Positions 14,643 to 29,422 are shown, counted from the first letter of the stretch. The stretch is DNA of 64,000 nucleotides from Prevotella sp. (GCA_045617365.1 JAZLIN010000014.1:5208-69207); one strand, 5' to 3'. Program-made: numbers and translations. Notes: generated by a model from the letters alone, not told the origin.

Positions 14643-17600
14643 TTACAAGTTAATCTTTACGCCCATAGCGAATGAACGTCCCTTACCGAGGAGACCGCGG
14701 TCAATGCCCTGTGCGAGTGCGTTGTTGGACAGAGTGCAGTCAGGATTGCTACCGAGGTACTTGGTGATGGTGAAGAGATTCTGTGCGCTACCCCATACGG
14801 TGATACCCTGCAGGAAGGTGTGGTTGATAGGAAGAGTGTAGCTCAGTGTGACGTCGCTCATGCGGAGATAGCTGCCATCCTCAATCCAGCGGTCACTGAA
14901 TCGGCTGTTGCCGTTAGGATCCTGATATGAGATGCGTGGCATATCTGTCACCTGACCTTCTGTAGTCCAGCGTCTTGACATTGCTGTAGTCTGGTTGAAG
15001 AAGTACTTGCCGCTCTCAAGGATGCTACGCTCATAGTTGTAGATGTCATTGCCGAGAGAGTAGTTGAAGGTGATGTCAAGAGTCCACTTTTTCCAGTTCA
15101 GATGGCTGTAGATGTTACCGTAGATATCAGGATTTGGATTACCGATGACTACGCGGTCGTTGTCATTGATCTCGTGGTTGCCGTCCTGGTCTATGAACTT
15201 CATGTCGCCAGCCTGGAAGTTTATCTGCTTACCGCTCTCATCTACATAGTAGTTGGCTGTAGACTTAGCCTCTGCAGAAGAAGCATACACACCATTAGTG
15301 CGGTAACCATAGAACATTCCGATTGGTGAACCAACCTTGGTGATTATGTTGGCACCATATATATTAGTGATTACGTTATCAGTCTTGAGAGCAGTGACCT
15401 TGTTGTCATAGTGACCAACAGAGAAACCGAGCTCCCAGTGCCAGTTGTTGCAGTTGATGACTTTTCCGCTGAGAGCGAAGTCGAAGCCCTTGTTTTCGAG
15501 TTTGCCATCATTACCCCAGTTCTCCTTGAGGCCAGAAGTCCAAGCCATCTGTGAGAGAGTGAGCAGGTTATTGGTCCAAGACTTGTATATATTGAATGTG
15601 GCATGAATGCGGTTGTTTACGAAGTTACCCTCGATGCCAGCATTTACCTTCTTTGTAGTCTCCCACTTGAGGGTGCTGTTACCAACGTTGTCCAGAACGA
15701 TACCATTGATAGTAGTGCCGAGCATGTTCTTTGATACAAAGTAAGAACGTGATGCGGTAGCATTGATATCGTCGTTACCTGATACATCAAATCCTGCATT
15801 GACGCGAAGGTAGTTTACACCAGTGGTCTTAGGGAACCATTTCTCGTTGGTGAGAACGTAAGAGCCCTGTACACTAGGGAATATACCCCATACGGTGCCG
15901 AAAGCCTTGAGTCCGTCAACCTCCTTGCCGAAGCGTGAAGAAGCCTGTGCTGAAAGAATGGCTGTGAGGTAGTACTTCTCAGCATAGTTATATGCAGCCG
16001 ATGCGTACCATGTGATGTCGGTATATTTGTCATCCACACCCTGTGTCTGCTTGTGGCTGAGGGCAGGTGAGAGGTTTGGCGTCTTATCATTACCGGTATT
16101 CATACCCCACTGAGCATTGAGCTTGTATGCGCTGTTCATATAGCGTACACCAGTAAAGAGTTCGATTGCATGAGCATTGTATCGGTTGTCCCATGTCAGA
16201 CGTGTGTCGCTCTGGATAGAGTTCTGGCGAGCAGCGAGACTCTTCTTGATGTTGTCTTCATAGATGCGCTCTGATGTGCCAGGGATGCGATAGCCAGGCA
16301 TACCCTCGATAGGAAGATAGTACTCCTCGTTGGTATTTACCAGTGTGAAGTTGAATGCCTCAGAGAGTTTGAGGTGCTTGTTGAACTGGTAAGTTGGAGT
16401 GACAGAGAACATCACGAGGCGGTTGCCGAATGTGTTACAGTTACGTCCCTCACCGTAGAGCAGTATGCTTGCAGGGTTAGCAAGGCTTCTGTCGTTGGTG
16501 ATGATACTGTTCTGCAGATAGTCATCAGCAATAGAGAGGTAACTACTCAGGTTGCCATTGATATCGTAAGCATAAGGCGAGAGGAATGGAGCCTTGATGA
16601 GCGAGAGGAAGCTCGGTGATGTGATAGAAGTCTCATCAACGTTCTCGGTCGTACCAAGATCGCGGAGATTGCGGTTTACATCGCTGAAAGAAGCATCAAA
16701 GCGAACGTTGAGATTCTTGAGAATCTGTATGTCGGTATTCAGACGCATGTCAAAGCGAGAGAAGTCGTTGCGCTTGAGAGGGCTGTCAGCGAGAGAGTAA
16801 CCTACGCTGAGGTTGTAGTTGGCTACATCGTCACCACCCTGTACGTTGATGCCATACTGCTGTGCGAAGGCATTCTCGTAAGCTTCCTTCTTCCAGTCGG
16901 TATTATTATGGTACATAGGGTAGTAGTAATATGTAGGATCATCTACCAGCATCTTCATACCAGAGATATCAGATACCTGCTGTGAAAGCATTTCCGTAGC
17001 GTAGGTACGGTAATCGGAAGCGTTCATCATATCAGGAGTGGTAGGCAACAGCTGATATTTGCCGCCTATAGTCACGTCAATCTTGGTTGCCATGCTGCGG
17101 TTACGCTTTGTGGTAATCATGATGACTCCATTGGCACCCTTGGCACCATAGAGAGCTGTACCATTCTTCAGGACCTCAACCTTGTCAATATCGTTGACAT
17201 TGATGTTAGCGAGGAGGTTGTTGAAGTATCCATCGTGCAGTGCGCTGCTGTCATACTTCATATCCATGATGACACCATCAACGACGATGAGAGGCTGTGC
17301 ATTGGCACTGATAGAGTTGAGGCCTCCGATAAACATTGCGTTGCCCATGCCGTCATTACCGCCGCGGCTTACTGCTCTGACATCTGCACCCAGACGCTGC
17401 TGAATCAATGGGTCGATGCTCACTTCTACGTTATTGTCAAAGCCTGAAGCTTTTGATGAGCGCAGGGCATTGGTCTTGTCAGTATAGCTGCTGGAGAATG
17501 CGTTGCTGTACATCTCTGCATTCACCTCATCAGTATTTTTACCGATAGCCACCTGCTGAGGAGCTGCACCATCGAGAGTCATATATACGCTGGTGATGTA

Positions 17601-17834
17601 TTCAGGTACCTCCTTGATGGTATATACACCTTCTGTATTGGTCATGGCAGAGAAGCGTGGGTTACCGTATGCTTTCACTTGAACGCCGGCAAGAGGCTTG
17701 CCAGTAGCGGCGTCTGTCACCCTACCGCTGATATCGGTAGCTGAAGCACCGACTGCAGCGAGGAGAGTCAAAGGCATTGTAAGAAGCAGTTTCTTTGCAA
17801 TGCACTTGTTGTATATAGGATTAAAAGTAATCAT
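14643..17834 (-). CDS. susC: SusC/RagA family TonB-dependent transporter (pair 2)
   Basis: QPLIVVDG, INVNDIDKVEVLKNGTALYGAKGANGVIMITTKR, LKWETT, SDRWIEDGSYLRM, C-terminal GVKINL; start chosen at the MITFN motif (17834). Confidence 0.93.
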   Translation of the reverse strand: MITFNPIYNKCIAKKLLLTMPLTLLAAVGASATDISGRVTDAATGKPLAGVQVKAYGNPRFSAMTNTEGVYTIKEVPEYITSVYMTLDGAAPQQVAIGKNTDEVNAEMYSNAFSSSYTDKTNALRSSKASGFDNNVEVSIDPLIQQRLGADVRAVSRGGNDGMGNAMFIGGLNSISANAQPLIVVDGVIMDMKYDSSALHDGYFNNLLANINVNDIDKVEVLKNGTALYGAKGANGVIMITTKRNRSMATKIDVTIGGKYQLLPTTPDMMNASDYRTYATEMLSQQVSDISGMKMLVDDPTYYYYPMYHNNTDWKKEAYENAFAQQYGINVQGGDDVANYNLSVGYSLADSPLKRNDFSRFDMRLNTDIQILKNLNVRFDASFSDVNRNLRDLGTTENVDETSITSPSFLSLIKAPFLSPYAYDINGNLSSYLSIADDYLQNSIITNDRSLANPASILLYGEGRNCNTFGNRLVMFSVTPTYQFNKHLKLSEAFNFTLVNTNEEYYLPIEGMPGYRIPGTSERIYEDNIKKSLAARQNSIQSDTRLTWDNRYNAHAIELFTGVRYMNSAYKLNAQWGMNTGNDKTPNLSPALSHKQTQGVDDKYTDITWYASAAYNYAEKYYLTAILSAQASSRFGKEVDGLKAFGTVWGIFPSVQGSYVLTNEKWFPKTTGVNYLRVNAGFDVSGNDDINATASRSYFVSKNMLGTTINGIVLDNVGNSTLKWETTKKVNAGIEGNFVNNRIHATFNIYKSWTNNLLTLSQMAWTSGLKENWGNDGKLENKGFDFALSGKVINCNNWHWELGFSVGHYDNKVTALKTDNVITNIYGANIITKVGSPIGMFYGYRTNGVYASSAEAKSTANYYVDESGKQINFQAGDMKFIDQDGNHEINDNDRVVIGNPNPDIYGNIYSHLNWKKWTLDITFNYSLGNDIYNYERSILESGKYFFNQTTAMSRRWTTEGQVTDMPRISYQDPNGNSRFSDRWIEDGSYLRMSDVTLSYTLPINHTFLQGITVWGSAQNLFTITKYLGSNPDCTLSNNALAQGIDRGLLGKGRSFAMGVKINL

Positions 17835-17882
17835 ACTTTTCTTAGTTTGTTTTTTATGATTTGACATTTCCTTATCGCGGCA

Positions 17883-19523
17883 TTAGTCTTTTGGTCTGAG
17901 GAAGATGCAATCAAGATACATCTCATTGTCACTTGATGCCTGCTGCTGCTTGGTAATGTTAGTCTTTAATGTGATGCTTATCTTGTCGTTTGTCATATCG
18001 TAGTTGCATGCAGGGAATACGAAATCCTCTGCGACTACGATTGTGTCAACCTTGGCCTTGTCAGTAGTAAAGGTCTTCTTGTTCTCACAGTCGAAAGTCT
18101 GTGCTACACCGTTTTCATCAAAATAGTTGATGGTAGCCTGGAAACGGCAAGTCTTTGATGCCAGTCCCATGACTGTCTTAGGCAGTACCACTACACATAC
18201 ATCATATTTGCCAGCGAAAGTGTTTGCGAGCTTATACTTGAGGCTCCATGCCACAGTCTTTGAGTTTGGTACTACGTCGAGGAAAGCTCCCTTTGATATA
18301 CTGTCGCCACTTACTGTCATGGTCAGCAACTGACACTTCTCGTTCTCAATGACATTCCATGTGCTCTCCATTTCATATTCCAGTTTTCTGAAATATGTCT
18401 GCTTAGCATCGATAGGCCATTCGTCATAATAATAGATAGTACCGTTACTACACTTGATAGAGTCTGTAGCGCTGCCGAAGAGACCTGTAGCCTTGTCGTA
18501 TGGATTCTTGAATACGCCATACTGTGGCTGAGTCTTGTTATACCATCTGCTTACTACGCTGTCCTGTGGACTAGCCTGAATGGTCTTACTGAATACAAGG
18601 TTTTCGAGGAACCACTCGTTAGCCCAGAATCTCTGGAGAGAGTCACCCTTTTCTATGTCGTTGCTGTATTTGAAGTGTGCGTAAGCCTCGTCCATAGCTT
18701 TCTCCCATGCCTTCTGACTTGGAACAGCCATCCAGTATGTAGAGTCCTCGCTGTTGAGAAGACCTATGTAGTTCATGAGTTTGTTGTCTTCGTATGTCAC
18801 AGAATCGACATAAACCTTGATACCATCAACGATACCGCTGCTGATACTTGCCTCTTCATTAAAGTGGTCTTCGTTGAAGCCCTTGAGTATATTGCCCAGT
18901 CCTGTGAAACGGTCGTCAGAGGTGAAGGTCTCATAGATGGTCTTCATGTAAGGCAGTGGCTTTTCGATGACGTGGAGTACGCCATTGCGTGAATGAAGGT
19001 CTGTGCTCTTGAAGGCAATGCCGTTGGCAGAAGTCTCGTTGACGTCAACATACTTGTTGTTGAGCATGCGGAGTTTCTGTTCGGTAGCAGACTGAGGTGC
19101 ATCTACTATGTGGTTGAGGACGAAGAACTGCTCTACCATAGAGTCACCCTCGTTGGTCTGGAGCTGATTCAGGAGAGCCTGCTTGTCGAATGTACCGTTT
19201 ACCGGTGCGAAGACTGTTAGCGAACGATTACCGTTGATATAGTCGGAGTAGCTAACGGAAGTCTTCTTGTGGTGACGGAAAACCTTTGTGTTAGAGAGAA
19301 CCTCAGCGAAATCAGAAAGTTCAGGACGCTGCTGTATCATCTCCCAGATGGTTGCGCTGTTGCCAGCACTTGCGCTGTCGGCATAATGGTCGTCCCAGTC
19401 AGAACAGCTGGTCATCATGGCAACAGACGAGCACACTGCCAGCTGGAGTGCAAGGAAGATTGACTTCCTTGTACTCTTGCCGATCAGAGTCGCTTTGTTG
19501 TATATCTTGTTAAAAGTAATCAT
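17883..19523 (-). CDS. Fasciclin (FAS1) domain lipoprotein
   Basis: Lipobox MTSC; TIWEMI...ELSDFAEVL, TVFAPVN, NGVLHVIEKPL. Confidence 0.85.
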   Translation of the reverse strand: MITFNKIYNKATLIGKSTRKSIFLALQLAVCSSVAMMTSCSDWDDHYADSASAGNSATIWEMIQQRPELSDFAEVLSNTKVFRHHKKTSVSYSDYINGNRSLTVFAPVNGTFDKQALLNQLQTNEGDSMVEQFFVLNHIVDAPQSATEQKLRMLNNKYVDVNETSANGIAFKSTDLHSRNGVLHVIEKPLPYMKTIYETFTSDDRFTGLGNILKGFNEDHFNEEASISSGIVDGIKVYVDSVTYEDNKLMNYIGLLNSEDSTYWMAVPSQKAWEKAMDEAYAHFKYSNDIEKGDSLQRFWANEWFLENLVFSKTIQASPQDSVVSRWYNKTQPQYGVFKNPYDKATGLFGSATDSIKCSNGTIYYYDEWPIDAKQTYFRKLEYEMESTWNVIENEKCQLLTMTVSGDSISKGAFLDVVPNSKTVAWSLKYKLANTFAGKYDVCVVVLPKTVMGLASKTCRFQATINYFDENGVAQTFDCENKKTFTTDKAKVDTIVVAEDFVFPACNYDMTNDKISITLKTNITKQQQASSDNEMYLDCIFLRPKD

Positions 19524-19632
19524 ACTTTTTTCTTTTTTTACTGATTATCGATTAAATAGTTAAATACCTCAATCGATTAATAAATTGTAGATAGTAAATA
19601 AGTGAATGGTAAATCTGCAAGAATGATGCAGG

Positions 19633-21630
19633 TTAGTGTCTGTCTTCACCTTCGGGACTAGCATAAACGCTCTTAGGACAGAGTTCGATATAGTCGAATG
19701 ACCATTCTGCATTGCCTTCGAGTACCTGACGGAAGCGGAGCCAGTATTCACCACCCTCAGAGAACTGTGCTGTGGTGAGTATGCGGCGCACGTGCTCAGG
19801 AGCATCCACGCGGAAGTTAGTAGCGCCAGGCTTGCCGTAAGAGTCCATACCCTTCATGAATCCGCGGTTGTGGAGAGCCTTGTCCTGTGCGGTGTTAGCC
19901 TCATCATCGTCAGTATCAGCCTCGACACCGATTTCTGGTGCCCATGAACCGATACGCAGGTCAACAGGAATGCCGCAAGGTTCGTTGTTGAGATATACCT
20001 GTACTACACCACGCTCATCGCTGGCTACGTATCCCAAGCGAATTTCGTAGAGTCCTGGAGGAGGGCAAGGCAGTTTGATTTGAACGTCATACTGACCCTT
20101 GATAGCAACGGCATTGCCGAGGTAAGAACTCCACCACACGTTATCACAGTGAACAGCCACGAATGTCTCAGGAGTTGTCTTCCAGTTCTTGATGAATCCG
20201 TTCTTCATAGCGAAGAGGTAGTTCTCATCCCATCCTAGATTACCGCGTGCACCCTGGTTCATGAAGTCTGCGCAGAGTGTAGTTGCGTCGATACGCATAC
20301 GGCAGTTGAGAACCTTGTCACGTACGTTGGTATCATACTTCAAGATGTCATCGATATAGAAGTAACGTCCGTTGAGGGATACCTGATTGTGCTTGCCACT
20401 CTCAGAGTCTGTATATACTCTCACGCCCTTACAGCCTGATACGTATTTATTCTTGAGACCCTTGCGGTTAGCATAGAGCTGACCATTGGCGCGGCAGAAG
20501 CGGAGCATGGTACCAGGGCACATGGTCTCCCAGAAGTCTTCTGCATCAGCGATGTCAGTGCGGCAGCAGGTGGTGAGCACTTCGCCTGAAGGAGCCCAGT
20601 CACCATAGTTACCCATACGGTCAAAGAGGTGGTAGCTCACGAAACGGTTGAGAGGATTCTTTCTGTTCTTGTAGTCATCGTCGTAGAGGCCAGCATCTTC
20701 AGGATAAGTCTCATTATATACCTTCTTTGCGTATTCAATGAGGTCATCGATGGTGTAGATGCCATGCTTATTGAAGATGGAATCAGGCTCAATGAATGCT
20801 GTGAACTTGAAGAAACGCTTCTCTGGATAGTGTGCTACCATGTCCTTACCACCGAATCGGATGTTAGGGACACCCTTTGTTACAGAGTCATCATCGCAAT
20901 AGTAACTATTGTCGATGTATGCTGAGAGAGAGTCCTTCATGTTGGTGAGGAAGAGTGCTTCTGTGAAGATTTTGATGCTCTCGTCCTCAAGCATGAGGTC
21001 AGGGAGGTAAAGGTTGCTGGCTGCCAGTACGCGGTCAATCACGTGAACCACACCATTGGTAACGGAGTCATCCTTATGTGTAATCTCGGAACGCTTGTTG
21101 ACGAAGAGTTTTACCTTCTTGTCTCCGGTAGAAGATACCGAACTGTCGCAAGTGATTACGAGGTAGCGGTCATCCATGTTCATTGCAGGGAGGGCACCGT
21201 CACTGTAGTCGGTAGTGAAGTAAGCACCCTTGCTGACGATGTGGTTACGAGCGATGGTATCGCAGGTCTTAACAGGAATCTCGTCGATGCTTGCGTAATG
21301 ATTCTCTTCGAGATATTTCTTTACGGCATCATTGTCTGGTGCGAATACAGTATATGTACCGTATGTGGAAAGTGTACTGAAATAGTTAGCTTTCTCCAGT
21401 ATTCCCTGGAAGAGGCTGAAGCTCTCAGGATTATCAGAGATGAGCTGGGCTGCAGTACGTTTCGATGCCTTATAGTAGGCAGAATTGTCGAAGTCATCAT
21501 CCGTACAGCTGGTCAGTGAACCTGCCAGTGCTGCAACTGCCAATGAGAGGGCAGGGAGTATGTTGCGCATCTTGCGCAGACATCCGTTGACTTCTGTCAT
21601 CTTACTGTTTATGTTGCCAAAAGTAATCAT
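19633..21630 (-). CDS. Fasciclin (FAS1) domain lipoprotein
   Basis: Lipobox LTSC; YTVFAPDNDA, VTNGVVHVIDRVL, second FAS1-like segment. Confidence 0.85.
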   Translation of the reverse strand: MITFGNINSKMTEVNGCLRKMRNILPALSLAVAALAGSLTSCTDDDFDNSAYYKASKRTAAQLISDNPESFSLFQGILEKANYFSTLSTYGTYTVFAPDNDAVKKYLEENHYASIDEIPVKTCDTIARNHIVSKGAYFTTDYSDGALPAMNMDDRYLVITCDSSVSSTGDKKVKLFVNKRSEITHKDDSVTNGVVHVIDRVLAASNLYLPDLMLEDESIKIFTEALFLTNMKDSLSAYIDNSYYCDDDSVTKGVPNIRFGGKDMVAHYPEKRFFKFTAFIEPDSIFNKHGIYTIDDLIEYAKKVYNETYPEDAGLYDDDYKNRKNPLNRFVSYHLFDRMGNYGDWAPSGEVLTTCCRTDIADAEDFWETMCPGTMLRFCRANGQLYANRKGLKNKYVSGCKGVRVYTDSESGKHNQVSLNGRYFYIDDILKYDTNVRDKVLNCRMRIDATTLCADFMNQGARGNLGWDENYLFAMKNGFIKNWKTTPETFVAVHCDNVWWSSYLGNAVAIKGQYDVQIKLPCPPPGLYEIRLGYVASDERGVVQVYLNNEPCGIPVDLRIGSWAPEIGVEADTDDDEANTAQDKALHNRGFMKGMDSYGKPGATNFRVDAPEHVRRILTTAQFSEGGEYWLRFRQVLEGNAEWSFDYIELCPKSVYASPEGEDRH

Positions 21631-21663
21631 ACTTTCTGTATTTTATTTATTGTGTAACAATTT

Positions 21664-23403
21664 TTATTTTATGAAATCCTCCGTATCTCCGTATGCAGGA
21701 TTCTGCTTGAGATTTGGATTAAGTTTCAGCTCTTCTCTGTTGTATGGGAAGAAGATGTAGTCAGGATCGCTGAGGCGGATCTTGATAGCATTTACATTCT
21801 CCTGATACTTGGTAGTAGCTTCCGAAGTGAGGAACTGTGTGTTGCCATCGCGAAGTGAAACGCGTACGAGGTCAAACCATCTCTTGCCTTCGAACATGAA
21901 TTCGCGGTTGCGCTCATCCATGAGGAGTTTCTCCATCTTCTTCTGGCTAGAGTTGTAGTTGGTATAAACCAGAGTGTCCTTGTCAGACTTAGATATGAGA
22001 TGGCGTGCGCGCTTGTTGACAGAGTTGATGAGGCTGAATGCCTCTTCGAACTTTGAATCACCCATCATGATGAGGGCTTCTGCCTTCATGAGCATCACGT
22101 CAGTCAGTCTATAGACTATCCACTGAGAGAATTTGTTGCCTCGCAAAGATGTAGAGAGCTTGAGACTCTTCTCATCCGAGATGTTAGTGGTAGTGAGAGT
22201 TACAGAAGTATTGACATACTTTGTGATGTTGTACTTACTGCTGGTATGTCCGATGTTCTCATATACGCGGCAGTCGTTCTTGTCCCAGAGTTCGCAGTTG
22301 CCCAGAGCGGCATCCTTGCGGAGATGGTCAGGAGCAGAGAGGTTGCCGAGAGGCTGGCTGCCTGTGCCGAAGCATGTTGCAACGTAATCGTTGTCGATTG
22401 CCTGGTTGTTTCTGAAATAGAGTTCAAAGAGACTTTCGAATGAGTGACCTGTACCGAAAATCTGGTTGTATGCTGTACCGCAGGTTGTGCTGCCTTCAGT
22501 CTTCTCCAGTATGAGAGGTATTCCGTTGAAGTCGCCCATGTCGTGCAGGTCACCGAGCTTCTCTTTCTTCAGCTTATACTGTTCCTTCTTGAATTCAATC
22601 ACCTTGTCGCAATAATCAACAGTTGCCTGATAGTTGCCGCGCCAGAGGTTGAGGTCTGCAAGGAGTGCATAGATAGCTACGCGTGTCACACGTGAGTTGT
22701 TCTCGTATGCTCTGGTTGATGCTGTGGTATTCATCATCTCGCTATCATCGATATAGCGCTTTACAGCCCAGTTCTCTACCTTCTTAAGGTCATCGATAAG
22801 CATATCGAGAGCATCGTTCATCTTTGTAGGAGCAAGTTGGTAGTCCTTAAGGTCGTCGATGCTTGGTTCGAAGGAAACAGGCACATCACGGAATGTACGT
22901 ATGAGATAGAAGTAGCAAAGGTCGCGGAGGAATGTTGCCTCGGCAATGTTTGCCTGCATCTCTGATACTGTATAGTTAGGGTCTTTCTCGTTTACCTGTG
23001 GAGCATAGTGGCACACCGTATTGCAGTAGTTGATGGTGGTGTACATTATGTCCCATTTGGTATAGGAGTTTGTAGGGAGGATATTCTCCTTTAGTATCTC
23101 TGTGAGATCGTAAGGAGCATTGTTGCCCTGAACCATGTTCTCGGATCTTACCTCGCCCCAGAGTCCCATGCGTCTGATACTCTCCTTTGATTCGAGTGAC
23201 TCGTAACAACTGTTGAGTACGCTGGTGACGTCATTTTTCTTTGTCCAGTATTTCTCGAGCACCACATCGTTGAGAGGCAGCGTGTCGAGGAAGTCGTTGC
23301 AGGAAGTCATCATCATTGCACCAGCTGCGATGATGGTAGCATTAAGGGTAAGGAGTCTTACCTTTCCTGCACCTTTTTTATATATTTGCTTAAGAGTAGT
23401 CAT
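21664..23403 (-). CDS. susD: SusD/RagB family lipoprotein (pair 1)
   Basis: Lipobox MTSCNDFLD, YTTINYCN, YFYLIRTFRDVP, YRLTDVMLMKAEA, ERNREFMFEGKRWFDLVR. Confidence 0.93.
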   Translation of the reverse strand: MTTLKQIYKKGAGKVRLLTLNATIIAAGAMMMTSCNDFLDTLPLNDVVLEKYWTKKNDVTSVLNSCYESLESKESIRRMGLWGEVRSENMVQGNNAPYDLTEILKENILPTNSYTKWDIMYTTINYCNTVCHYAPQVNEKDPNYTVSEMQANIAEATFLRDLCYFYLIRTFRDVPVSFEPSIDDLKDYQLAPTKMNDALDMLIDDLKKVENWAVKRYIDDSEMMNTTASTRAYENNSRVTRVAIYALLADLNLWRGNYQATVDYCDKVIEFKKEQYKLKKEKLGDLHDMGDFNGIPLILEKTEGSTTCGTAYNQIFGTGHSFESLFELYFRNNQAIDNDYVATCFGTGSQPLGNLSAPDHLRKDAALGNCELWDKNDCRVYENIGHTSSKYNITKYVNTSVTLTTTNISDEKSLKLSTSLRGNKFSQWIVYRLTDVMLMKAEALIMMGDSKFEEAFSLINSVNKRARHLISKSDKDTLVYTNYNSSQKKMEKLLMDERNREFMFEGKRWFDLVRVSLRDGNTQFLTSEATTKYQENVNAIKIRLSDPDYIFFPYNREELKLNPNLKQNPAYGDTEDFIK

Positions 23404-23437
23404 ACTTTTAATTATCTTAGCTTATTGTGAATGATGT

Positions 23438-26400
23438 TTAGAACTGTATGCTGAGTCCGGCTGTGATAGACTTTGCTCTTGGTGTCTGAGCATTATCTGT
23501 TGTTACGCCGTAGCCTCCGTAGCCAACCTCAGGGTCTGAACCAGAATACTTGGTGAGACAGAATACATTGTTAGCCGAGACATTGAATGAAACACTGCCG
23601 AGACCAAGCTTCTTGACAAACTTCTGTGGGAAAGCGTAGCTGAGGTTGGTGTAGTTCAGACGGATGAATGAACCGTCCTCTACGAAACGGTCACTGCCGA
23701 GGTAGTTGTAACCATACTTATGGAGTGCGCGAGGTATCTCTACGATATCACCCTCTACGCGCCAGCGGTGGTTGACAGCGCGGCTCTGGTTATTGTTGTT
23801 GTACATGCTCTCTGCATTCATACGGTTACCGTTGACGATCTTGTTGCCGTAACGGAAGTTGAACTGGTTGTTGAGCATCCATCTGCCGAACTTGAACTTG
23901 ATACCGAAACCACCAGTAACCTTAGGGAGTGAAGAACCGAGATATACGATATCGAGCTCATTGATGGTACCGTCGTGGTTGATGTCCTCGTAGATGGCAT
24001 CACCGCCCTTGAACTCATATTCCGCTGTTGTGCCGTAGCAGAAAGTCATTGGTTTGGTGTGTCCCTTGTTGTCCTTGATTACAACATTGTTCTCGTCGCG
24101 TACTACAGGAGCATTAGGACCGCTTACGCCCTTGACCTCTTCGTCGGTATATTCAGTGTATTGATATACGCCCTTGTAGCGGAAACCGTAGATGGAACCG
24201 AATGGTCTGTCAATCTCTACACGTGTCTGGTAGGTGCCGTTAGAACGAGAGAAGTCGTGGTTGAGAGTAGCGAGGCAAGTCTCATCCATCTCTGTGATGA
24301 CGTTCTTGTTGTTGGCGAATGTAACGTTGAAGTCGATGCCGAACTTGTTAATCTTGACGAGGTTGTTGGTGTTGATATTGAACTCCCAGCCAGTGTTCTC
24401 CATCTTACCTACGTTATCGTAAGCCAACTGAGTGTAACCGGAAGAAGTAGGAATCTTTCTGTCTCTCATCAGAAGGTCAGAGGTGTACTGCTTATAGATT
24501 TCTACGTTACCGGTAATCTTGTCGGAGAGGAAACCGAAGTCAAAACCGAGGTTGTATGTCTTCTTCGTCTCCCACTTCAGTTTCTTCAGCTGTATGTTCT
24601 GTGGATGTGTAGAACCGCTGCCCATATAGCCGTTACCGTTAGAGTACTTACTGAAGTAGAGGTAATCGCCACCAGGCTGCTGACCTACTATACCCCAACC
24701 TGGACGTACAGAAAGCATAGACAGCCAAGGCAGCTTCTCCTTTACGCCTGGCTCATTGCTGATGTTCCAACGCAGAGAGACTGCTGGGAACATACCCCAA
24801 CGCTTGTCAGGACCGAACTTGGTGCTACCGTCGCGACGCAGAGAGAAGTCGAACATATAGCGAGACTTCCATGCGTAGTGCATAGAGTATGTGAAGTAGA
24901 GCGAACGCCACTGACCTGCAGAACTGCTGAACGAGTCGCCGATGTTACCAGGAGCACCTGTGCTGATGATATTGTTTGGCAGACCATACTTAGAGGTGTT
25001 CTGTGTGCTTGAGCTACCATCGGTCAACTGTCCGCGGAGCATCATCATCAGAGAGTGGTCAGTGTTGGTGAAATGAGGTACGAATGTCAGAGTGTGAGTG
25101 GTGGTGATACCAAGACTCTTGTAAGAACTTGCAGTAGATTTGTTGGAGTTCTTGTTACTCCAGTCTCTTACGTTGAAGATACTTGGGAGGAAAGTATCTA
25201 CATACTCGTTGAAGATATCGAATACGATCTTACCCTCATACTTCAATTGAGTCTTATCCTCTTCCACACCCAGAAGGTTATACACGATTTGGAACTCAGG
25301 AGATATCTTGTAGCTTGACTTGTTATTGCTAGCGAGGTGAGCCAGGGCTACAGGGTTCTTCTGGTCGATCTGGTCAGAGAACTCTGGTGAGATACTTACA
25401 GGGATGTTGTAGAAGTTATCCATCTGGTTACCATCGAGGTCACGCTCATAGATAGGGAGGTTAGGCATACGGCTGTATGCTATGCCGAGCAATCCTTCAT
25501 AGTTCTGCTGGTTCTTGGTGTATGTGAATGCCAGGTTGGTGACAATCTTGATACGGTCAGATACCAGATAGTCCAGAGCTACACGTGACGTGATACGGTC
25601 CAGACACTGCTTGATGATAGAACCCGTCTCATGGTCATAACCAGCACCGATACGGTAGTTAGCCTTCTCACCACCACCAGTCAGAGAGATGTAGTGGTTC
25701 TGGCGCCAACCGGTCTGCTGTACAGACTTGATCCAGTCGGTATTGTTGTCATAGTTATGCCATCCGTTAGGGTTACTCTTGTCGTAGTTCAGTTCGATGA
25801 TGTCACTCGCTGTGCTGGAGAGGCGAGGATTGAAATAAGCCTCTTTCATCAGCATGGTATATTCGTCACCGGTAAGCATCTCGTAGCCCTTTGGCTGCCA
25901 TGTGCCAGTCAGACGGTAGCTGTATGTCACCTTAGTCTTACCGCGTGAACCACGCTTGAGCTTGATTTCGATTACACCATTTGCACCCTGCGAACCCCAT
26001 ATAGCTGTAGCTGCAGCATCCTTGAGTACGCTGATGCTCTCGATGTCCTCAGGATTTACGTTGAGGAGCTCAGCAAACTTCTCATCATTGGCAGATGAAA
26101 TATCGATGTTGCTGTTGCGGTCACTCTCCCATACGTTGCCGTCAACAACGATGAGCGGTTCAGTGTTACTGTTGATACTGCTCACACCACGGAGACGCAT
26201 AGAGGTACCGGAACCCAGGTTACCACTGTTGGCTACGATGTCAAGACCTGCGATACGTCCCTGCAGAGCTTCGTCGATAGTAGTCATTGCCAGACCTTCA
26301 AACTCCTTTGTAGAGATAGTCTGGTTAGCGGTAGATAACTGATCCTGAGGGATGTTAAGGCCAGAACCATTATGACGGTTCTTGCTGACGATGGTGACTT

Positions 26401-26761
26401 CCTTCAGACTTGTCAGGTCTTCGAGGGTGATGTTGTATTCCGTCCCCTTGATATTGACAGTCTTGGTCTTGAGACCCACATAGCTGAAACGCAGCTTATG
26501 CTTAGGGTCCTTGATCTTGAATGAGAAGTTACCATTCATATCTGTATTTGTAGAACTGACGATACGGTTAGCACCGTCAATCTCCACTACGTTAGCCATC
26601 ATGATAGGGCCGAGAGCATCACTCACGGTACCCGTAACCATGTCGCCAGCCTCTTGCGCTGATACTGTGCCAGCAGCAAGAAGTGAGAGGGAAGCCGTAA
26701 GGAATGCTCCCTTGGCTTTGCCTGCTACACCTTTTTTATATATATTATTAAAAGCTGTCAT
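23438..26761 (-). CDS. susC: SusC/RagA family TonB-dependent transporter (pair 1)
   Basis: ALQGRIAG, PLIVVDG, NPEDIESISVLKDAAATAIWGSQGANGVIEI, LKWETKKTYNLG, SDRFVEDGSFIRL, C-terminal F. Confidence 0.95.
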   Translation of the reverse strand: MTAFNNIYKKGVAGKAKGAFLTASLSLLAAGTVSAQEAGDMVTGTVSDALGPIMMANVVEIDGANRIVSSTNTDMNGNFSFKIKDPKHKLRFSYVGLKTKTVNIKGTEYNITLEDLTSLKEVTIVSKNRHNGSGLNIPQDQLSTANQTISTKEFEGLAMTTIDEALQGRIAGLDIVANSGNLGSGTSMRLRGVSSINSNTEPLIVVDGNVWESDRNSNIDISSANDEKFAELLNVNPEDIESISVLKDAAATAIWGSQGANGVIEIKLKRGSRGKTKVTYSYRLTGTWQPKGYEMLTGDEYTMLMKEAYFNPRLSSTASDIIELNYDKSNPNGWHNYDNNTDWIKSVQQTGWRQNHYISLTGGGEKANYRIGAGYDHETGSIIKQCLDRITSRVALDYLVSDRIKIVTNLAFTYTKNQQNYEGLLGIAYSRMPNLPIYERDLDGNQMDNFYNIPVSISPEFSDQIDQKNPVALAHLASNNKSSYKISPEFQIVYNLLGVEEDKTQLKYEGKIVFDIFNEYVDTFLPSIFNVRDWSNKNSNKSTASSYKSLGITTTHTLTFVPHFTNTDHSLMMMLRGQLTDGSSSTQNTSKYGLPNNIISTGAPGNIGDSFSSSAGQWRSLYFTYSMHYAWKSRYMFDFSLRRDGSTKFGPDKRWGMFPAVSLRWNISNEPGVKEKLPWLSMLSVRPGWGIVGQQPGGDYLYFSKYSNGNGYMGSGSTHPQNIQLKKLKWETKKTYNLGFDFGFLSDKITGNVEIYKQYTSDLLMRDRKIPTSSGYTQLAYDNVGKMENTGWEFNINTNNLVKINKFGIDFNVTFANNKNVITEMDETCLATLNHDFSRSNGTYQTRVEIDRPFGSIYGFRYKGVYQYTEYTDEEVKGVSGPNAPVVRDENNVVIKDNKGHTKPMTFCYGTTAEYEFKGGDAIYEDINHDGTINELDIVYLGSSLPKVTGGFGIKFKFGRWMLNNQFNFRYGNKIVNGNRMNAESMYNNNNQSRAVNHRWRVEGDIVEIPRALHKYGYNYLGSDRFVEDGSFIRLNYTNLSYAFPQKFVKKLGLGSVSFNVSANNVFCLTKYSGSDPEVGYGGYGVTTDNAQTPRAKSITAGLSIQF

Positions 26762-26799
26762 ACTTTTTTTCTATATAACAATAGTTATTTACGAATCGT

Positions 26800-26834
26800 T
26801 GTTAATTGTTAACTGTTAATTGTTAACTGTTAAC
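26800..26834. repeat. Heptamer tandem repeat TGTTAAY x5
   Basis: tgttaat tgttaac tgttaat tgttaac tgttaac, intergenic. Confidence 0.9.
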
Positions 26835-26842
26835 TATTCTGT

Positions 26843-29422
26843 TTATTTTTTCAGCACTCCATCTATCTGGTGTATTACGATGGTTGATGTGGTATATACA
26901 CCCGAAGCCTCTTCTGCATTCATGTTGTTGAGTATGTACTCGCGAGCCTGCAGGTTGTAGAGTCCCTTGCTCCTATCCACCATTACGGCAGGAGCATCGG
27001 CTCTGTTGACAGTACGTATCTCTATGTTGTTGTCTGTCAGAGTAGTGTAGAGTCTTTCAAACTTTCCGGTGTTCTCATTGATGAGTGATGTCTCATAACC
27101 ATCGCGAGCCTGAGGCTTTGCACCGATGAAGAGAGAGTAGTCCTGGATGTGATAGCGCAGGAAGTTCTCTATGGCGAGTGAGTCTGCGGTCTTCTTCTTG
27201 AAGTCCTCCATCTCAGCAGCCTTATCTACATCTTCCCATGTAGGGAGCTTGCCTGCCTTCTGCATTTCCTTTATAGCATCGTTGGTAGGAATATATACGG
27301 TATAGTGATAGGTGTTGAATACGCTGAGGTTCTCACCGGCACAGGCATATTTCTTGTCGTGCAGCTGCTCCAGCATAGAACTGCCTTCAAACAATTTAGC
27401 CATTTCATAGAATTCATCGTGTTCGCGGAGAATGTCCATGACAGTCTTGTTCGTAGTCTGTATAGGCTCATCCTCAAGTACATAGACCTTACCGTTTCCA
27501 TCCTTTGTCTGGTCATAGATGTCCTTCACGCGCAGTGGAGCCTGATTGTTGGAAGCCTGAAGGCTACCAGATACTGTCATGCCATTGATGCCGGCACTCA
27601 CGTTGTTGACTTTAATCTCCTGACCACCCTTTGTGCGATAGTACTCATGGCCGTCCTCTACGTTGCCAATGACGATATGGTTGTCGAGGATATCCTTCAG
27701 ACGTGCTCTCATGTGCTCATAGTCACGGTCTTCGCCGATACTGTCACCGATTTCGCCTGTCTCCTTATTATATTCATATACGGCAGCCCAAACAGGATTG
27801 GCAAGTCTCTCATCGTACTTGAAGCGATAGAGTTTAGTCTTTGCCTGACCGTAAGAGGTAGGGTCGATGTAGTTGTTGAGTGCCTCGTTGGTAGGGATGA
27901 AGAAACTATAGTAAGAGTTGAGCGAGTTAAGATATACGTTATACTGACATACACCCACAGCCCAGTCAATGATCTTCATGTTCTCGTTCACAACGGCAGG
28001 GTAGAGCACGCTGACGAATGAGGTAGGCGAGAATACCTTCTTGGTAAGATATACCGCACCGTTACAACTGAGGAACACGCTGTCGATCGCTGATTTACTT
28101 ACGCCCATAGGGTCGTTGGCATCGTTGAGAATGCCGTCGAACTTGCTTGGTACGCTCTCTACGAATGATGAGAGCATATTGTTGTTGATGAGTTCCACGA
28201 TTACGCGGTTAGGCACATTGTCCCATGTTTTATACTGATTCTTGAGTACGACGCCGGCGCCTTCGTTCCAATATTCGTCAAGGGCAGTGTTGGTTGGCAC
28301 CATGAGCACTGCCATGTCTCTCTGCATTGCAGTGTTGGCATTAGGAATGGCGTTGCCTGTATAGTAAGCGTTCCATCCTGGATCAAACTTGAAGAGATCG
28401 GAAGACTTGTTGATGTTGAGGATAGAGGTAACTATTCTGTCCTTGTCATCCACTACTATAGGTGCGCCGCCGGCTGATTTCCTTGAGAAATAACGCTTCA
28501 CGAATACAGAGTCCACATTTTTGTTGAACTGGTAGTTGTACTGTTCTGTGGTAGGCTGTCCTGCATAGAACGGAGTAGCAAATCTCTCAAGCATGCTGTA
28601 GAACATACTTGCCTGAGGTTTTTTTGATATCACCTCTGCCATGTTCTCCAGTGGCATGATGACATCCTCTACCTTGTGAATGAAGCCATTGCTACACTTG
28701 ATGTTCTGCTGAGAAATCTTGATGCCGTTGACACTTGCGTCACCAGGCTTGCGTTCCGTAGTGTAGTTGTAGAGCCAGTTGTAGTCATCATTGGTGATCT
28801 TGTTGTTGCGCATCTGTGCCTCTATGAAGTGCAGCATAGGAGGGATGGTGTTGTCCTTCATGAGCACGATCTTGTCACGTTCAGCGAAACGCTTCCATGT
28901 ATCGTTGTAGCGATACTCCTCAGGCTTCATGTTTGGCAGAGCGCTGGTGCTTACCACTGCGACAGAGTCATAGATAGTCTGCGAACTGGTACGTCTCATG
29001 CACTGTCCCTCAACCGGGCCTTCGATACTTGAAAGGTTGTTGATCTGATAGCTGTTGTTGATCATAGCACCGAGCAACAGCATTTTCTTCTGGGCGAGTG
29101 ACAACTGCTCGTAGTTCTTTACGCCCCATGAGTTGTTGGTGTAGAATCTGGCGAATGCCTCGTCGTCTGCGACGAAGACGGTCTTCGAACCAGTCTTTGC
29201 CAGTACCTCCTTCAGCCCAAGATCATCAATCAGGCGAACGGTGTTCTTGAAATTGCCTGCTTCGTCCAGATAACTGTAGATGCTGGCACCCCATCCTTCA
29301 GGGTTCCTTTCATCCAAGTCATACTGATCACATGCTGTCATTCCGAACAGACATGCTGTTAGTGACACAGCCATTGCCGGTCCGTGCCATCCTCTTGAAA
29401 ATAACTTTTTTTGTAAATTCAT
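26843..29422 (-). CDS. Multi-fasciclin-domain lipoprotein
   Basis: Lipobox MTAC; KTVFVADDEAF, CSNGFIHKVEDVI, FFIPTNEAL, YTVYIPTNDAI, VIHQIDGVL; start taken at MNLQKK (29422). Confidence 0.85.
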   Translation of the reverse strand: MNLQKKLFSRGWHGPAMAVSLTACLFGMTACDQYDLDERNPEGWGASIYSYLDEAGNFKNTVRLIDDLGLKEVLAKTGSKTVFVADDEAFARFYTNNSWGVKNYEQLSLAQKKMLLLGAMINNSYQINNLSSIEGPVEGQCMRRTSSQTIYDSVAVVSTSALPNMKPEEYRYNDTWKRFAERDKIVLMKDNTIPPMLHFIEAQMRNNKITNDDYNWLYNYTTERKPGDASVNGIKISQQNIKCSNGFIHKVEDVIMPLENMAEVISKKPQASMFYSMLERFATPFYAGQPTTEQYNYQFNKNVDSVFVKRYFSRKSAGGAPIVVDDKDRIVTSILNINKSSDLFKFDPGWNAYYTGNAIPNANTAMQRDMAVLMVPTNTALDEYWNEGAGVVLKNQYKTWDNVPNRVIVELINNNMLSSFVESVPSKFDGILNDANDPMGVSKSAIDSVFLSCNGAVYLTKKVFSPTSFVSVLYPAVVNENMKIIDWAVGVCQYNVYLNSLNSYYSFFIPTNEALNNYIDPTSYGQAKTKLYRFKYDERLANPVWAAVYEYNKETGEIGDSIGEDRDYEHMRARLKDILDNHIVIGNVEDGHEYYRTKGGQEIKVNNVSAGINGMTVSGSLQASNNQAPLRVKDIYDQTKDGNGKVYVLEDEPIQTTNKTVMDILREHDEFYEMAKLFEGSSMLEQLHDKKYACAGENLSVFNTYHYTVYIPTNDAIKEMQKAGKLPTWEDVDKAAEMEDFKKKTADSLAIENFLRYHIQDYSLFIGAKPQARDGYETSLINENTGKFERLYTTLTDNNIEIRTVNRADAPAVMVDRSKGLYNLQAREYILNNMNAEEASGVYTTSTIVIHQIDGVLKK

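What the first reader, a model, noticed from the sequence alone, without database searches (positions are those of the whole stretch)
17823..26767. Conserved inverted repeat centred on the start codon of five consecutive PUL genes
On the coding strand: susC2 and FAS1(19523) have AAAAGTA-TGAT-TACTTTT; FAS1(21630) has AAAGTA-TGAT-TACTTT; susD1 has TTAAAAGTA-TGAC-TACTCTTAA; susC1 has AAAAGT-ATGACA-GCTTTT. Plus-strand spans are 17823-17840, 19512-19529, 21620-21635, 23390-23411 and 26750-26767. All five continue into the same peptide frame M-x-x-F/L-x-x-I-Y/N-x-K (MITFNPIYNK, MITFNKIYNK, MITFGNINSK, MTTLKQIYKK, MTAFNNIYKK), always with ATA for Ile7. Two share 16 identical nt (ATATATAAAAAAGGTG). 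The proteins are unrelated (SusC, SusD, FAS1), and the first and last operon genes lack the motif. Inference: a shared post-transcriptional element (AUG-enclosing hairpin, RNase site, or sRNA/RNA-binding-protein target) sets utilisome stoichiometry, or a shared N-terminal pre-signal tag routes the subunits. I know of no description of this.
Basis: partly seen in the sequence, partly recalled or inferred. Interest (0 to 1): 0.76.

Follow-up and report, generated by a model that had tools for sequence, protein, structure and literature searches.

The report
Copied start module in PUL genes
Five neighbouring but unrelated sugar-uptake genes of a Prevotella-like gut bacterium begin with copies of one short piece of DNA (end of the leader, start codon, about ten codons of an export-signal extension); related species show the same copying with other sequences, and the small hairpin at the start codon is peculiar to this genome and weak.

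Summary
All five spans, the inverted repeats, the peptide frames and the shared 16-mer are as described. A degenerate 30-nt pattern hits six times in this 3.4-Mb genome and 0-1 times in each of 40 relatives.

I read the sites as copies of one roughly 35-50-nt start module. It comprises AAAGT, the ATG and 10-16 codons that lengthen the n-region of Sec or lipoprotein signal peptides. SusD1 orthologues carry this aromatic-basic N-terminus natively (MN.II.KYKR, MNTFNNIYKR). The orthologues of the other four genes do not, so those genes probably received it by short-tract recombination.

The same fasciclin/tandem-SusCD PUL in 69 non-redundant Prevotellaceae genomes shows such sharing between unrelated genes in 26. 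The versions differ by lineage, and identity reaches 87 of 90 nt.

Motif codons look constrained as peptide (pN/pS about 0.28). The hairpin is weak (-1.1 to -4.5 kcal/mol). It is absent from two further same-genome copies of the peptide motif and from other species' modules. The 18-nt palindromic block is nevertheless much better conserved than its flanks, so a local RNA or DNA role remains possible.

I found no sRNA complement, Rfam, Pfam or NCBIfam match, or published description.

The parts
17805..17840 (-). Start module in susC2 (positions -6 to +30; the inverted repeat is 17823-17840). Peptide MITFNPIYNK.
   Evidence: The motif may be internal to the ORF if translation starts at 17867.
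17865..17867 (-). Upstream in-frame ATG of susC2. It gives MSNHKKQTKKS ahead of the module.
   Evidence: The orthologue N-termini MNNKRKQTYR and MNNKKNKILS, and their similar pre-cleavage length, point to this as the ancestral start.
19494..19529 (-). Start module in FAS1a (inverted repeat 19512-19529). Peptide MITFNKIYNK.
   Evidence: No alternative start lies before the hydrophobic core.
21601..21636 (-). Start module in FAS1b (inverted repeat 21620-21635, extended by a G-U pair at 21636). Peptide MITFGNINSK.
   Evidence: The orthologues' start aligns with Met11 at 21600, so the module looks like a 30-nt addition.
23356..23411 (-). Start module in susD1 and the likely source copy. Peptide MTTLKQIYKKGAGK. 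The inverted repeat at 23390-23411 is interrupted.
   Evidence: SusD1 orthologues keep M-N-x-I-I-x-K-Y-K-R, and one has MNTFNNIYKR.
26714..26767 (-). Start module in susC1. Peptide MTAFNNIYKKGVAGKAKG. The inverted repeat at 26750-26767 includes a U-G pair.
   Evidence: susC1 orthologues begin MK.LLTDINGR.RR instead. This copy shares a 16-mer with susD1.
26843..29422 (-). FAS1c, a fasciclin lipoprotein and the first gene of the operon. It has no module (MNLQKKLFSR...).
23438..26761 (-). susC1, a TonB-dependent transporter.
21664..23403 (-). susD1, a SusD-family lipoprotein.
19633..21630 (-). FAS1b, a fasciclin lipoprotein.
17883..19523 (-). FAS1a, a fasciclin lipoprotein.
14643..17867 (-). susC2, a TonB-dependent transporter. 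The ORF runs from 17867 and the module ATG is at 17834.
12885..14624 (-). susD2, a SusD-family lipoprotein. Its start MNTIKKYIK is related to the motif but carries no extension.

Best explanation
The five sites are copies of one short start module. It consists of the last 5-6 leader bases (AAAGT), the AUG, and 10-16 AU-rich codons.

The module is most likely the native 5' end of susD1. There it encodes an aromatic-basic N-terminus of the lipoprotein signal peptide (M-x-x-[FIL]-x-x-[IK]-Y-K-[KR]).

In this lineage it was copied by short-tract recombination (gene conversion or template switching) into four neighbouring, unrelated genes of the same operon. The register differs between recipients:
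- In susC1 and FAS1a it replaces the old N-terminus.
- In FAS1b it sits 30 nt ahead of the old start.
- In susC2 it sits 33 nt behind the old start.

Where it is translated, it lengthens the n-region of an otherwise ordinary Sec signal peptide (signal peptidase I or II type) and is cleaved off with it.

The copies persist because signal-peptide N-termini are interchangeable, and because selection keeps the peptide pattern and the immediate AUG context.

The palindrome AAAAGTA-TGAT-TACTTTT is a property of this genome's version of the module, not the reason such modules exist.

What is shown:
- The copies have a common origin at the nucleotide level.
- They are rare in the genome.
- The module is absent from the orthologues of four of the five genes.
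- The same kind of sharing recurs in other species.
- The motif codons show a peptide-type substitution pattern.

What is inferred:
- The recombination mechanism.
- susD1 as the donor.
- Which AUG is actually used.
- Any benefit of the sharing.
For: Rarity and clustering
- The genome holds six pattern hits, five of them in this operon. The 40 relatives have 0-1 each.

Shared non-coding bases
- AAAGT lies upstream in all five copies. It precedes the first ATG in only 7 of 2437 other ORFs.

Similarity is within the locus, not between orthologues
- Among 69 loci x 7 genes, each window module's best matches are the window's own unrelated genes. The best outside matches are susD1 genes, led by L057 with MNTFNNIYKR at 35 of 57 nt.
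- All twelve nearest susD1 orthologues carry an aromatic-basic start of the [KT]-[YHF]-x-[KRH] type. susC1, FAS1b, FAS1a and susC2 orthologues have other N-termini. Those N-termini align with window Met11 in FAS1b and with the upstream ATG in susC2.

Recurrence in other species
- Non-homologous within-locus pairs sharing at least 32 of 57 nt number 47 of 1035. Between distant loci the figure is 35 of 5175 (Fisher p = 5e-17). In all, 26 of 69 loci are affected.
- Identity reaches 87 of 90 nt (L088 FAS1b/susD2) and 74 of 78 nt (L086 FAS1b/FAS1a), and can include leader bases.

Substitution pattern
- In motif codons pS is 0.44 and pN is 0.125. The x codons are nearly saturated.

Signal-peptide anatomy
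- Each product has a second basic cluster, a hydrophobic core, and a lipobox Cys followed by an acidic stretch, or an AQ/ASA-type cleavage site.
Against: - There are no close relatives: the best FAS1a homologue is 54% identical. Conversion tracts, their direction and their age therefore cannot be mapped.
- The window copies are only 28-36 of 57 nt alike, so they are old or mosaic.
- Among the three MITF copies, the block from -6 to +12 has 1 variable site in 18, against 20 in 32 in the flanks (p = 7e-5). Its synonymous sites +9 and +12 never vary. This argues for an extra nucleotide-level constraint, or a very recent 18-nt patch, which the model does not explain by itself.
- Recombination between unrelated genes has little homology to start from.
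Confidence: 0.55

Rival explanations
1. The AUG-enclosing RNA hairpin is the functional unit. The 6-7-bp AU-rich stem partly sequesters the start codon of the five internal cistrons. It damps or equalises SD-independent initiation, or marks an RNase site, and so tunes subunit ratios.
For: - RNAfold places the predicted stem at the AUG in four of the five sites.
- Perfect repeats of at least 6 bp around an ATG occur at only 1.6% of other starts, and repeats of at least 7 bp at 0.4%.
- The palindromic block from -6 to +12 is much less variable than both flanks: 1 of 18 against 20 of 32 in the MITF group, and 5 of 18 against 25 of 32 in all five.
- Synonymous sites +9 and +12 and the non-coding bases -5 to -1 are invariant, whereas synonymous sites in codons 8 and 10 vary.
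- Two of the four stem substitutions keep pairing as G-U.
Against: - The stems are weak: -3.4 to -4.5 kcal/mol, and -1.1 for susD1. Z-scores are only -0.3 to -2.4, and the starts rank at the 21st-39th percentile of all starts.
- The three perfect copies are effectively one sequence, so they count as one event.
- No pair changes on both sides, and two substitutions break pairs.
- The C114 and C48 copies of the peptide motif have no stem.
- Shared modules of other species are unstructured, with a mean z of +0.16.
- In susC2 the stem may lie inside the ORF.
Confidence: 0.2
2. The block is a shared target site for a trans-acting sRNA or an RNA-binding protein. This would resemble FopS/GibS with RbpB acting on susC translation-initiation regions in Bacteroides, but here co-regulating five cistrons.
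For: - The nucleotide-level conservation sits at the AUG.
- There is a precedent: multicopy sRNAs base-pair with the translation-initiation regions of PUL mRNAs, and an RNA-binding protein modulates this (PMC11697453).
Against: - No sequence elsewhere in the assembled genome complements 19-20 nt of the module with 2 or fewer mismatches. Only the sites' own opposite strand matches.
- There is no Rfam match in the locus at E <= 1.
- FopS targets the first cistron of a PUL, not internal ones.
- Modules differ between species without any known co-varying partner.
- Short seeds of 8-10 nt and protein binding were not testable.
Confidence: 0.08
3. The extension is a dedicated pre-signal address tag. 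The peptide M-x-x-[FL]-x-x-I-Y-x-K would be recognised by a targeting or assembly factor, so that the subunits of one utilisome are exported together. Its spread between genes would then be driven by selection.
For: - The substitution pattern is peptide-type (pN/pS about 0.28 in motif codons).
- The aromatic-basic start is conserved in SusD1 orthologues.
- Other lineages homogenised their own versions independently.
- The architecture is N1-linker-N2-H-C, as in extended signal peptides.
Against: - Only about 9 proteins in the genome carry it. Among the SusD homologues, 14 of 18 lack the IY-type start and most of these begin with a short MK-type n-region.
- The motif is present in only 10 of 69 susD1 orthologues and differs between lineages.
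- Its position relative to the ancestral start varies.
- There is no match to ESPR, YSIRK or any other curated family.
- No candidate receptor is known.
Confidence: 0.15
4. The similarity is convergence without common origin. AU-rich codon bias and A-rich leaders at Bacteroidota starts would have produced similar sequences by chance.
For: - The first ten codons of the genome's ORFs are strongly AU-biased: ATA 48%, AAA 60%, TTT 55%.
- K, I and L are enriched there.
- Leaders are 40-50% A.
Against: - The genome has only six pattern hits, the reversed control has none, and relatives have 0-1.
- GT at positions -2 and -1 occurs at 3.6% of starts but at all five here.
- ACT accounts for 19% of Thr codons at gene heads but is used in 4 of 4 Thr codons here.
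- A genome-wide all-against-all comparison ranks these pairs among the highest-scoring non-paralogous neighbour pairs.
Confidence: 0.02

Closest known systems
Extended signal peptides with a conserved n-region motif: ESPR of type V secreted proteins (Pfam PF13018) and YSIRK-G/S signal peptides of Gram-positive surface proteins.
   Same: All have a conserved aromatic/basic stretch placed N-terminal to an otherwise normal n-h-c signal peptide. The stretch is shared by proteins with unrelated mature parts and is removed at cleavage.
   Different: There is no sequence match. The carriers here are SusC, SusD and fasciclin PUL proteins of a Bacteroidota species. The motif is specific to lineage and locus rather than conserved phylum-wide. 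Only about 9 proteins per genome carry it, and its function is untested.
Concerted evolution of 5' leader and signal-peptide modules in surface-protein gene families, such as Mycoplasma vlp/vsp, Borrelia lipoprotein families and Helicobacter babA/babB (own knowledge). Also the shared 5' cassettes of susC paralogues noted earlier in this scan (e1-4000498, e1-3885697).
   Same: Nucleotide identity is confined to the leader and signal-peptide end of the genes. Copies within a genome are more alike than orthologues. Recombination is the presumed cause.
   Different: In those cases the genes downstream are paralogues. Here the recipients are non-homologous genes (a TonB-dependent barrel, a SusD-like TPR lipoprotein and fasciclin proteins) inside one operon. 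The tract is only about 35-90 nt, and no phase or antigenic variation is evident.
SusC/SusD shufflons of Bacteroides: site-specific inversion between inverted repeats in the 5' ends of susC genes, driven by a tyrosine recombinase (own knowledge; earlier finding e1-3885697).
   Same: Both involve repeated 5' ends of PUL outer-membrane genes that include the start codon and signal peptide.
   Different: All copies here are direct repeats on one strand, and no tyrosine recombinase gene lies on the 75-kb contig. Recombination between them would delete DNA, not invert it.
FopS/GibS sRNAs and RbpB acting on susC translation-initiation regions in Bacteroides thetaiotaomicron (PMC11697453).
   Same: Both are post-transcriptional control points at the AUG region of PUL transporter mRNAs, with a sequence shared by several targets.
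   Different: FopS acts on the first cistron of many PULs, whereas here five consecutive cistrons of one PUL are involved. No complementary RNA gene was found, and there is no Rfam match in the locus.
SD-independent, A-rich 'Kozak-like' start contexts and AU-rich early codons of Bacteroidota (own knowledge: Accetto & Avgustin 2011; Baez et al. 2019).
   Same: The module has A at -3 to -6 and AU-rich codons (ATA, AAA, TTT), as do gene heads genome-wide.
   Different: General bias does not explain the specific shared 18-mer, the rare G at -2, or the confinement to one operon.

Membership tests
ESPR (extended signal peptide region, PF13018) | Sequence match to the ESPR profile (MNKIY..-type N1 plus an H1 segment). 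| tested here: not met
   hmmscan of eight N-terminal peptides against Pfam at E <= 10 gave no ESPR hit.
ESPR (extended signal peptide region, PF13018) | An N-terminal extension ahead of a classical n-h-c signal peptide. | tested here: met
   Ten to 26 residues precede the hydrophobic core, with a second basic cluster just before it. A lipobox Cys or an AQ/ASA-type site follows.
ESPR (extended signal peptide region, PF13018) | Carried by type V secretion passengers (autotransporters, TPS, trimeric adhesins). | tested here: not met
   The carriers are SusC (Plug), SusD_RagB and Fasciclin proteins.
YSIRK-G/S signal peptide (TIGR01168) | A YSIRK...G..S motif in the n-region or at the start of the h-region. 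| tested here: not met
   There was no NCBIfam hit at E <= 10. The motif here is I-Y-[KN]-K.
Gene-conversion-homogenised 5' modules (concerted evolution) | Copies within a genome are more alike than orthologous copies between genomes. | tested here: met
   Each window module's best matches among 69 loci are the window's other genes. Within-locus pairs are enriched about 7-fold.
Gene-conversion-homogenised 5' modules (concerted evolution) | Nucleotide identity includes non-coding and synonymous sites and ends abruptly. | tested here: met
   AAAGT is shared by all five copies. The conserved block runs from -6 to +12. Other loci reach 87 of 90 and 74 of 78 nt.
Gene-conversion-homogenised 5' modules (concerted evolution) | The participating genes are paralogues that provide flanking homology. 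| tested here: not met
   The SusC, SusD and fasciclin genes are unrelated, with local alignment scores below 60 outside the module.
Gene-conversion-homogenised 5' modules (concerted evolution) | Tract ends and direction can be mapped between close strains. | not testable with these tools
   The nearest homologue is 54% identical. The metagenome pattern scan gave only chance hits.
SusC/SusD shufflon | Repeats lie in inverted orientation and flank an invertible segment. | tested here: not met
   All five copies are on the minus strand as direct repeats.
SusC/SusD shufflon | An adjacent tyrosine recombinase gene. | tested here: not met
   PF00589 has seven hits in the genome and none on contig C14.
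FopS/GibS-type sRNA target | An sRNA with a complementary seed is encoded in the genome. | tested here: inconclusive
   No match of at least 17 of 19 nt lies outside the sites themselves. Short seeds and the FopS family were not scanned genome-wide.
Start-codon-occluding regulatory hairpin (RNA-thermometer-like) | A stable structure supported by covariation that sequesters the initiation region. | tested here: inconclusive
   A stem is predicted in four of five sites but is weak, and no pair changes on both sides. The block is conserved. No such structure appears in other species' modules.

The most novel reading that the evidence does not exclude
Prevotellaceae PULs use exchangeable 'start modules': a leader end, the AUG and a pre-signal peptide. 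These would be copied between unrelated cistrons because a uniform module co-ordinates initiation rate and co-translational targeting of the subunits of one utilisome. The palindromic 18-mer in this genome would be one working version. The (AATTGAN)n-MITKSIK cassette of rumen lineages, with its long AUG-enclosing hairpin in susC1, would be another.
Probability: 0.2. Interest if true: 0.8.

Novelty: new variant of a known kind. Interest (0 to 1): 0.55.

Why it matters
How the subunits of SusCD 'utilisomes' are made in matched amounts and delivered together is an open question. Bacteroidota lack Shine-Dalgarno-led initiation, so the first few dozen bases of each cistron carry most of the information.

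This locus and 26 of 69 related loci show that these bases, together with the signal-peptide N-terminus, can be shared by unrelated genes of one operon. If selection drives the sharing, it gives a compact and directly testable handle on co-ordinated translation or export.

If the sharing is neutral, it shows that short-tract recombination reshapes signal peptides between non-homologous neighbours. That matters for start-codon annotation, signal-peptide prediction and PUL evolution, because direct repeats at gene starts allow in-frame deletion or swapping of modules.

Tried and rejected
- **Rfam.** Scans of the locus and of three related loci at E <= 1 found nothing.
- **Pfam and NCBIfam.** Scans of the N-terminal peptides at E <= 10 gave no ESPR, YSIRK or other meaningful hit.
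- **Antisense or sRNA search.** A search for complements of 19-20-nt module segments, allowing 2 mismatches, matched only the sites' own opposite strand. Shorter queries gave only background matches.
- **'ATA for Ile7' as a sign of RNA constraint.** Rejected, because ATA is 48% of Ile codons at positions 2-11 genome-wide and the copies are not independent.
- **A general AUG hairpin in shared modules of other species.** Not found.
- **Shufflon reading.** Rejected, because the repeats are direct and no recombinase is on the contig.
- **The palindrome as a repeated operator.** AAGTA-N3-6-TACTT with this spacer occurs only at the three MITF copies.
- **Family-wide scan for the rumen-type cassette.** ATGATTACCAAAAGCATAAA, with up to 2 mismatches, was searched in 301 genomes. 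Fifteen single 2-mismatch hits came back, which is close to the control level, so the cassette is confined to particular lineages.
- **Metagenome scan for the window-type module.** It returned five chance matches in short ORFs.
- **Literature searches.** Searches for shared or extended signal peptides, gene conversion of signal peptides, and Bacteroidota found no description.

Full report
**1. What is in the window**

The minus strand carries a seven-gene polysaccharide utilisation locus:
- FAS1c, 26843-29422
- susC1, 23438-26761
- susD1, 21664-23403
- FAS1b, 19633-21630
- FAS1a, 17883-19523
- susC2, 14643-17834 (ORF open from 17867)
- susD2, 12885-14624

A SASA-type esterase gene follows. A hybrid two-component regulator is transcribed divergently.

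Each product continues into a second basic cluster and a hydrophobic core. The cleavage site is a lipobox Cys followed by an acidic stretch in FAS1a, FAS1b and susD1, and an AQ/ASA-type site in the two SusC proteins. The shared decapeptide is therefore an N-terminal extension of the signal peptide's n-region and would be removed with it. This rests on general knowledge of Sec and lipoprotein signal peptides.

**2. Is it more than chance?**

Yes.
- A six-frame regex and an nhmmer profile built from the five sites recover only these five in the 3.44-Mb assembly, plus one SusD gene on contig C114 (MITLSSIYKKG).
- A degenerate 30-nt pattern gives 6 hits here, none for the reversed control, and 0-1 in each of 40 relatives.
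- AAAGT precedes the first ATG of only 7 of 2437 other ORFs. GT at positions -2 and -1 occurs at 3.6% of starts.
- In an all-against-all comparison of start regions, these pairs rank among the highest-scoring non-paralogous neighbouring pairs in the genome.
- Looser relatives of the peptide (..IY[KNR][KG]) occur on a second SusD in the paralogous fasciclin PUL on C114, and on a SusD and its neighbour on C48. Of 18 SusD homologues, 14 lack the IY-type start, and most begin with a short MK-type n-region.

**3. The hairpin**

RNAfold places the predicted stem at the AUG in four of the five sites, but the stem is weak.
- The energies are -3.4 to -4.5 kcal/mol, and -1.1 for susD1.
- The z-scores are -0.3 to -2.4.
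- The five start regions rank at the 21st-39th percentile of 2431 starts.

Perfect repeats of at least 6 bp around an ATG are uncommon, at 1.6% of starts. However, the three perfect ones here are near-identical copies, so they count as one event.

Of the four substitutions at stem positions, two keep pairing as G-U and two break it. No pair changes on both sides.

The C114 and C48 copies have no stem. No complement of the module exists elsewhere in the genome. Rfam finds nothing.

'Always ATA' is not informative, because ATA makes up 48% of Ile codons at positions 2-11 genome-wide.

The palindromic block from -6 to +12 is far better conserved than its flanks.
- In the MITF trio, 1 of 18 sites varies, against 20 of 32 in the flanks (p = 7e-5).
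- Across all five copies, 5 of 18 sites vary, against 25 of 32 (p = 8e-4).
- Its non-coding bases and the synonymous sites +9 and +12 never vary.

**4. Related loci change the picture**

FAS1a homologues are at most 54% identical, and all named ones come from Prevotella MAGs.

The same gene order was recovered from 80 Prevotellaceae genomes and from several metagenome contigs.

In many of these loci, unrelated genes of one PUL share their start regions, and the shared version depends on the lineage:
- M[KN]NIISKY.KK in L013 and L024
- MN[TI]IKEKI in L015
- MNIKKYI in L057
- MITKSIK...CCG...C in a rumen clade

Identity reaches 87 of 90 nt between a fasciclin gene and a susD gene (L088), and 74 of 78 nt in L086. 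It can include leader bases.

The excess is measurable. Within-locus non-homologous pairs sharing at least 32 of 57 nt number 47 of 1035, against 35 of 5175 between distant loci (p = 5e-17). At least one such pair occurs in 26 of 69 non-redundant loci.

These shared modules show no local structure around the AUG, with a mean z of +0.16.

**5. Origin of the window's version**

All twelve nearest susD1 orthologues carry an aromatic-basic start. Examples are MN.II[SY]KYKR, MNISISKYIRK, MTTIFNTYNK and, in L057, MNTFNNIYKR. The window's susD1 (MTTLKQIYKKGAG) aligns with them residue for residue.

The orthologues of the other four genes begin differently:
- susC1 orthologues begin MK.LLTDINGR.RR.
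- FAS1b orthologues begin M.NKKCK.LMRGL, which aligns with window Met11.
- susC2 orthologues begin MNNKRKQTYR, which aligns with the window's upstream ORF start MSNHKKQTKK.

Each window module's best matches among all 69 loci are the window's own other genes, followed by susD1 genes of other species.

The simplest reading is that the susD1 start module was copied into four neighbours, in different registers relative to their old starts. It follows that the 'start-codon' stem of susC2 may lie inside the ORF, and that FAS1b may still use its old AUG.

**6. What is conserved**

Across the ten pairs of window copies, the substitution rates are:

| Codons | pS | pN |
|---|---|---|
| Motif codons 2, 3, 4, 7, 8, 10 | 0.44 | 0.125 |
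| x codons 5, 6, 9 | 0.81 | 0.47 |

Tyr8 and Lys10 use both of their synonymous codons. This is the signature of constraint on a peptide.

Superimposed on it is the nucleotide-level block around the AUG described in section 3.

In the rumen MITKSIK cassette, codon choice departs sharply from the loci's own usage:
- ATT in 21 of 25 cases (background 0.25)
- ATA in 19 of 26 (background 0.15)
- AAA in 22 of 26 (background 0.22)
- AGC in 21 of 22 (background 0.29)

Codons 2-7 stay 88% identical between species, while codons 8-16 fall to 44%. Early-codon AU bias contributes to this pattern, and specific nucleotides may also matter.

**7. Verdict**

The best-supported explanation is a copied start module that encodes a pre-signal extension. 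I put this at about 0.55. The copying and the peptide-type constraint are shown. The recombination mechanism, the donor and any benefit are inferred.

A functional AUG hairpin remains possible (about 0.2), because the conserved block coincides with the palindrome. It is weak, specific to this genome, and not a general feature of such modules.

An sRNA or protein target is unlikely on present evidence (about 0.08). A dedicated address tag scores about 0.15. Pure convergence is excluded for practical purposes.

I found no description of start-module sharing between unrelated genes of one operon in the searchable literature.

The closest known analogues are:
- extended signal peptides (ESPR, YSIRK);
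- concerted evolution of leader and signal-peptide modules in surface-protein families;
- susC shufflons;
- sRNA control at susC initiation regions (PMC11697453).

The locus fails the defining features of each of these that could be tested.

**8. Limits**
- No close relatives exist in the collections searched.
- Start codons in all loci were taken as ATG candidates without experimental support.
- The pairwise statistics are not phylogenetically independent.

Noticed in passing
window 26800-26835 (minus strand; the FAS1c-susC1 spacer): A heptad tandem array, (GTTAACA/ATTAACA) x5, lies 36 nt upstream of the susC1 module. It contains a stop codon in every frame and is predicted to pair with itself through the GUUAAC palindromes.
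   Followed up: partly
L094, L077, L088, L058, L066, L075, L079, L051, L086 (around position 10001 and neighbouring gene starts): In a rumen Prevotellaceae clade, arrays of (AATTGAN)n abut the ATG of several PUL genes and are followed by ATGATTACCAAAAGCATAAA (MITKSIK). In susC1 the signal-peptide codons carry the complementary heptads ((TCAATTG)n, translated as ..CQLSIVNC..). RNAfold predicts a long interrupted hairpin enclosing the AUG. L088 gives -45 kcal/mol with z = -4.3, L058 gives z = -3.5 and L075 gives z = -3.4; other loci are not significant.
   Followed up: partly
L105 and L107 (genome of L094); L099 and L102 (genome of L077): The MITKSIK cassette, with its heptad leader, also heads SusD-like and fasciclin-like lipoprotein genes of a second locus in the same genomes. 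Modules are therefore shared between paralogous PULs as well as within one.
   Followed up: partly
G000 contigs C114:5931-23240 and C80:106829-124800: The genome holds two further fasciclin/tandem-SusCD PULs with the same gene order. They are not homogenised. Only two SusD genes on C114 carry IY[KN]K-type starts.
   Followed up: partly
G000 C30:25021, C75:7131, C76:24857, C100:9290, C134:48718: The palindrome AAAGTAGTAACTTT recurs five times. Four copies lie 41-63 nt upstream of the first ATG of an unrelated gene, and the C75 copy had no ORF called near it. It may be an operator or a promoter element.
   Followed up: no
L088, FAS1a and susD2 upstream regions: The leader of susD2 (cgccctaaagaaaaaagaataaataaaaaa) repeats the leader of FAS1a, while its signal peptide repeats that of FAS1b. 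This is a mosaic of two donors.
   Followed up: no
window 17883-17867: Only 13 nt separate the FAS1a stop from the upstream susC2 ATG. The spacer contains AAGGAA, a Shine-Dalgarno-like string that is unexpected in a Bacteroidota operon.
   Followed up: no
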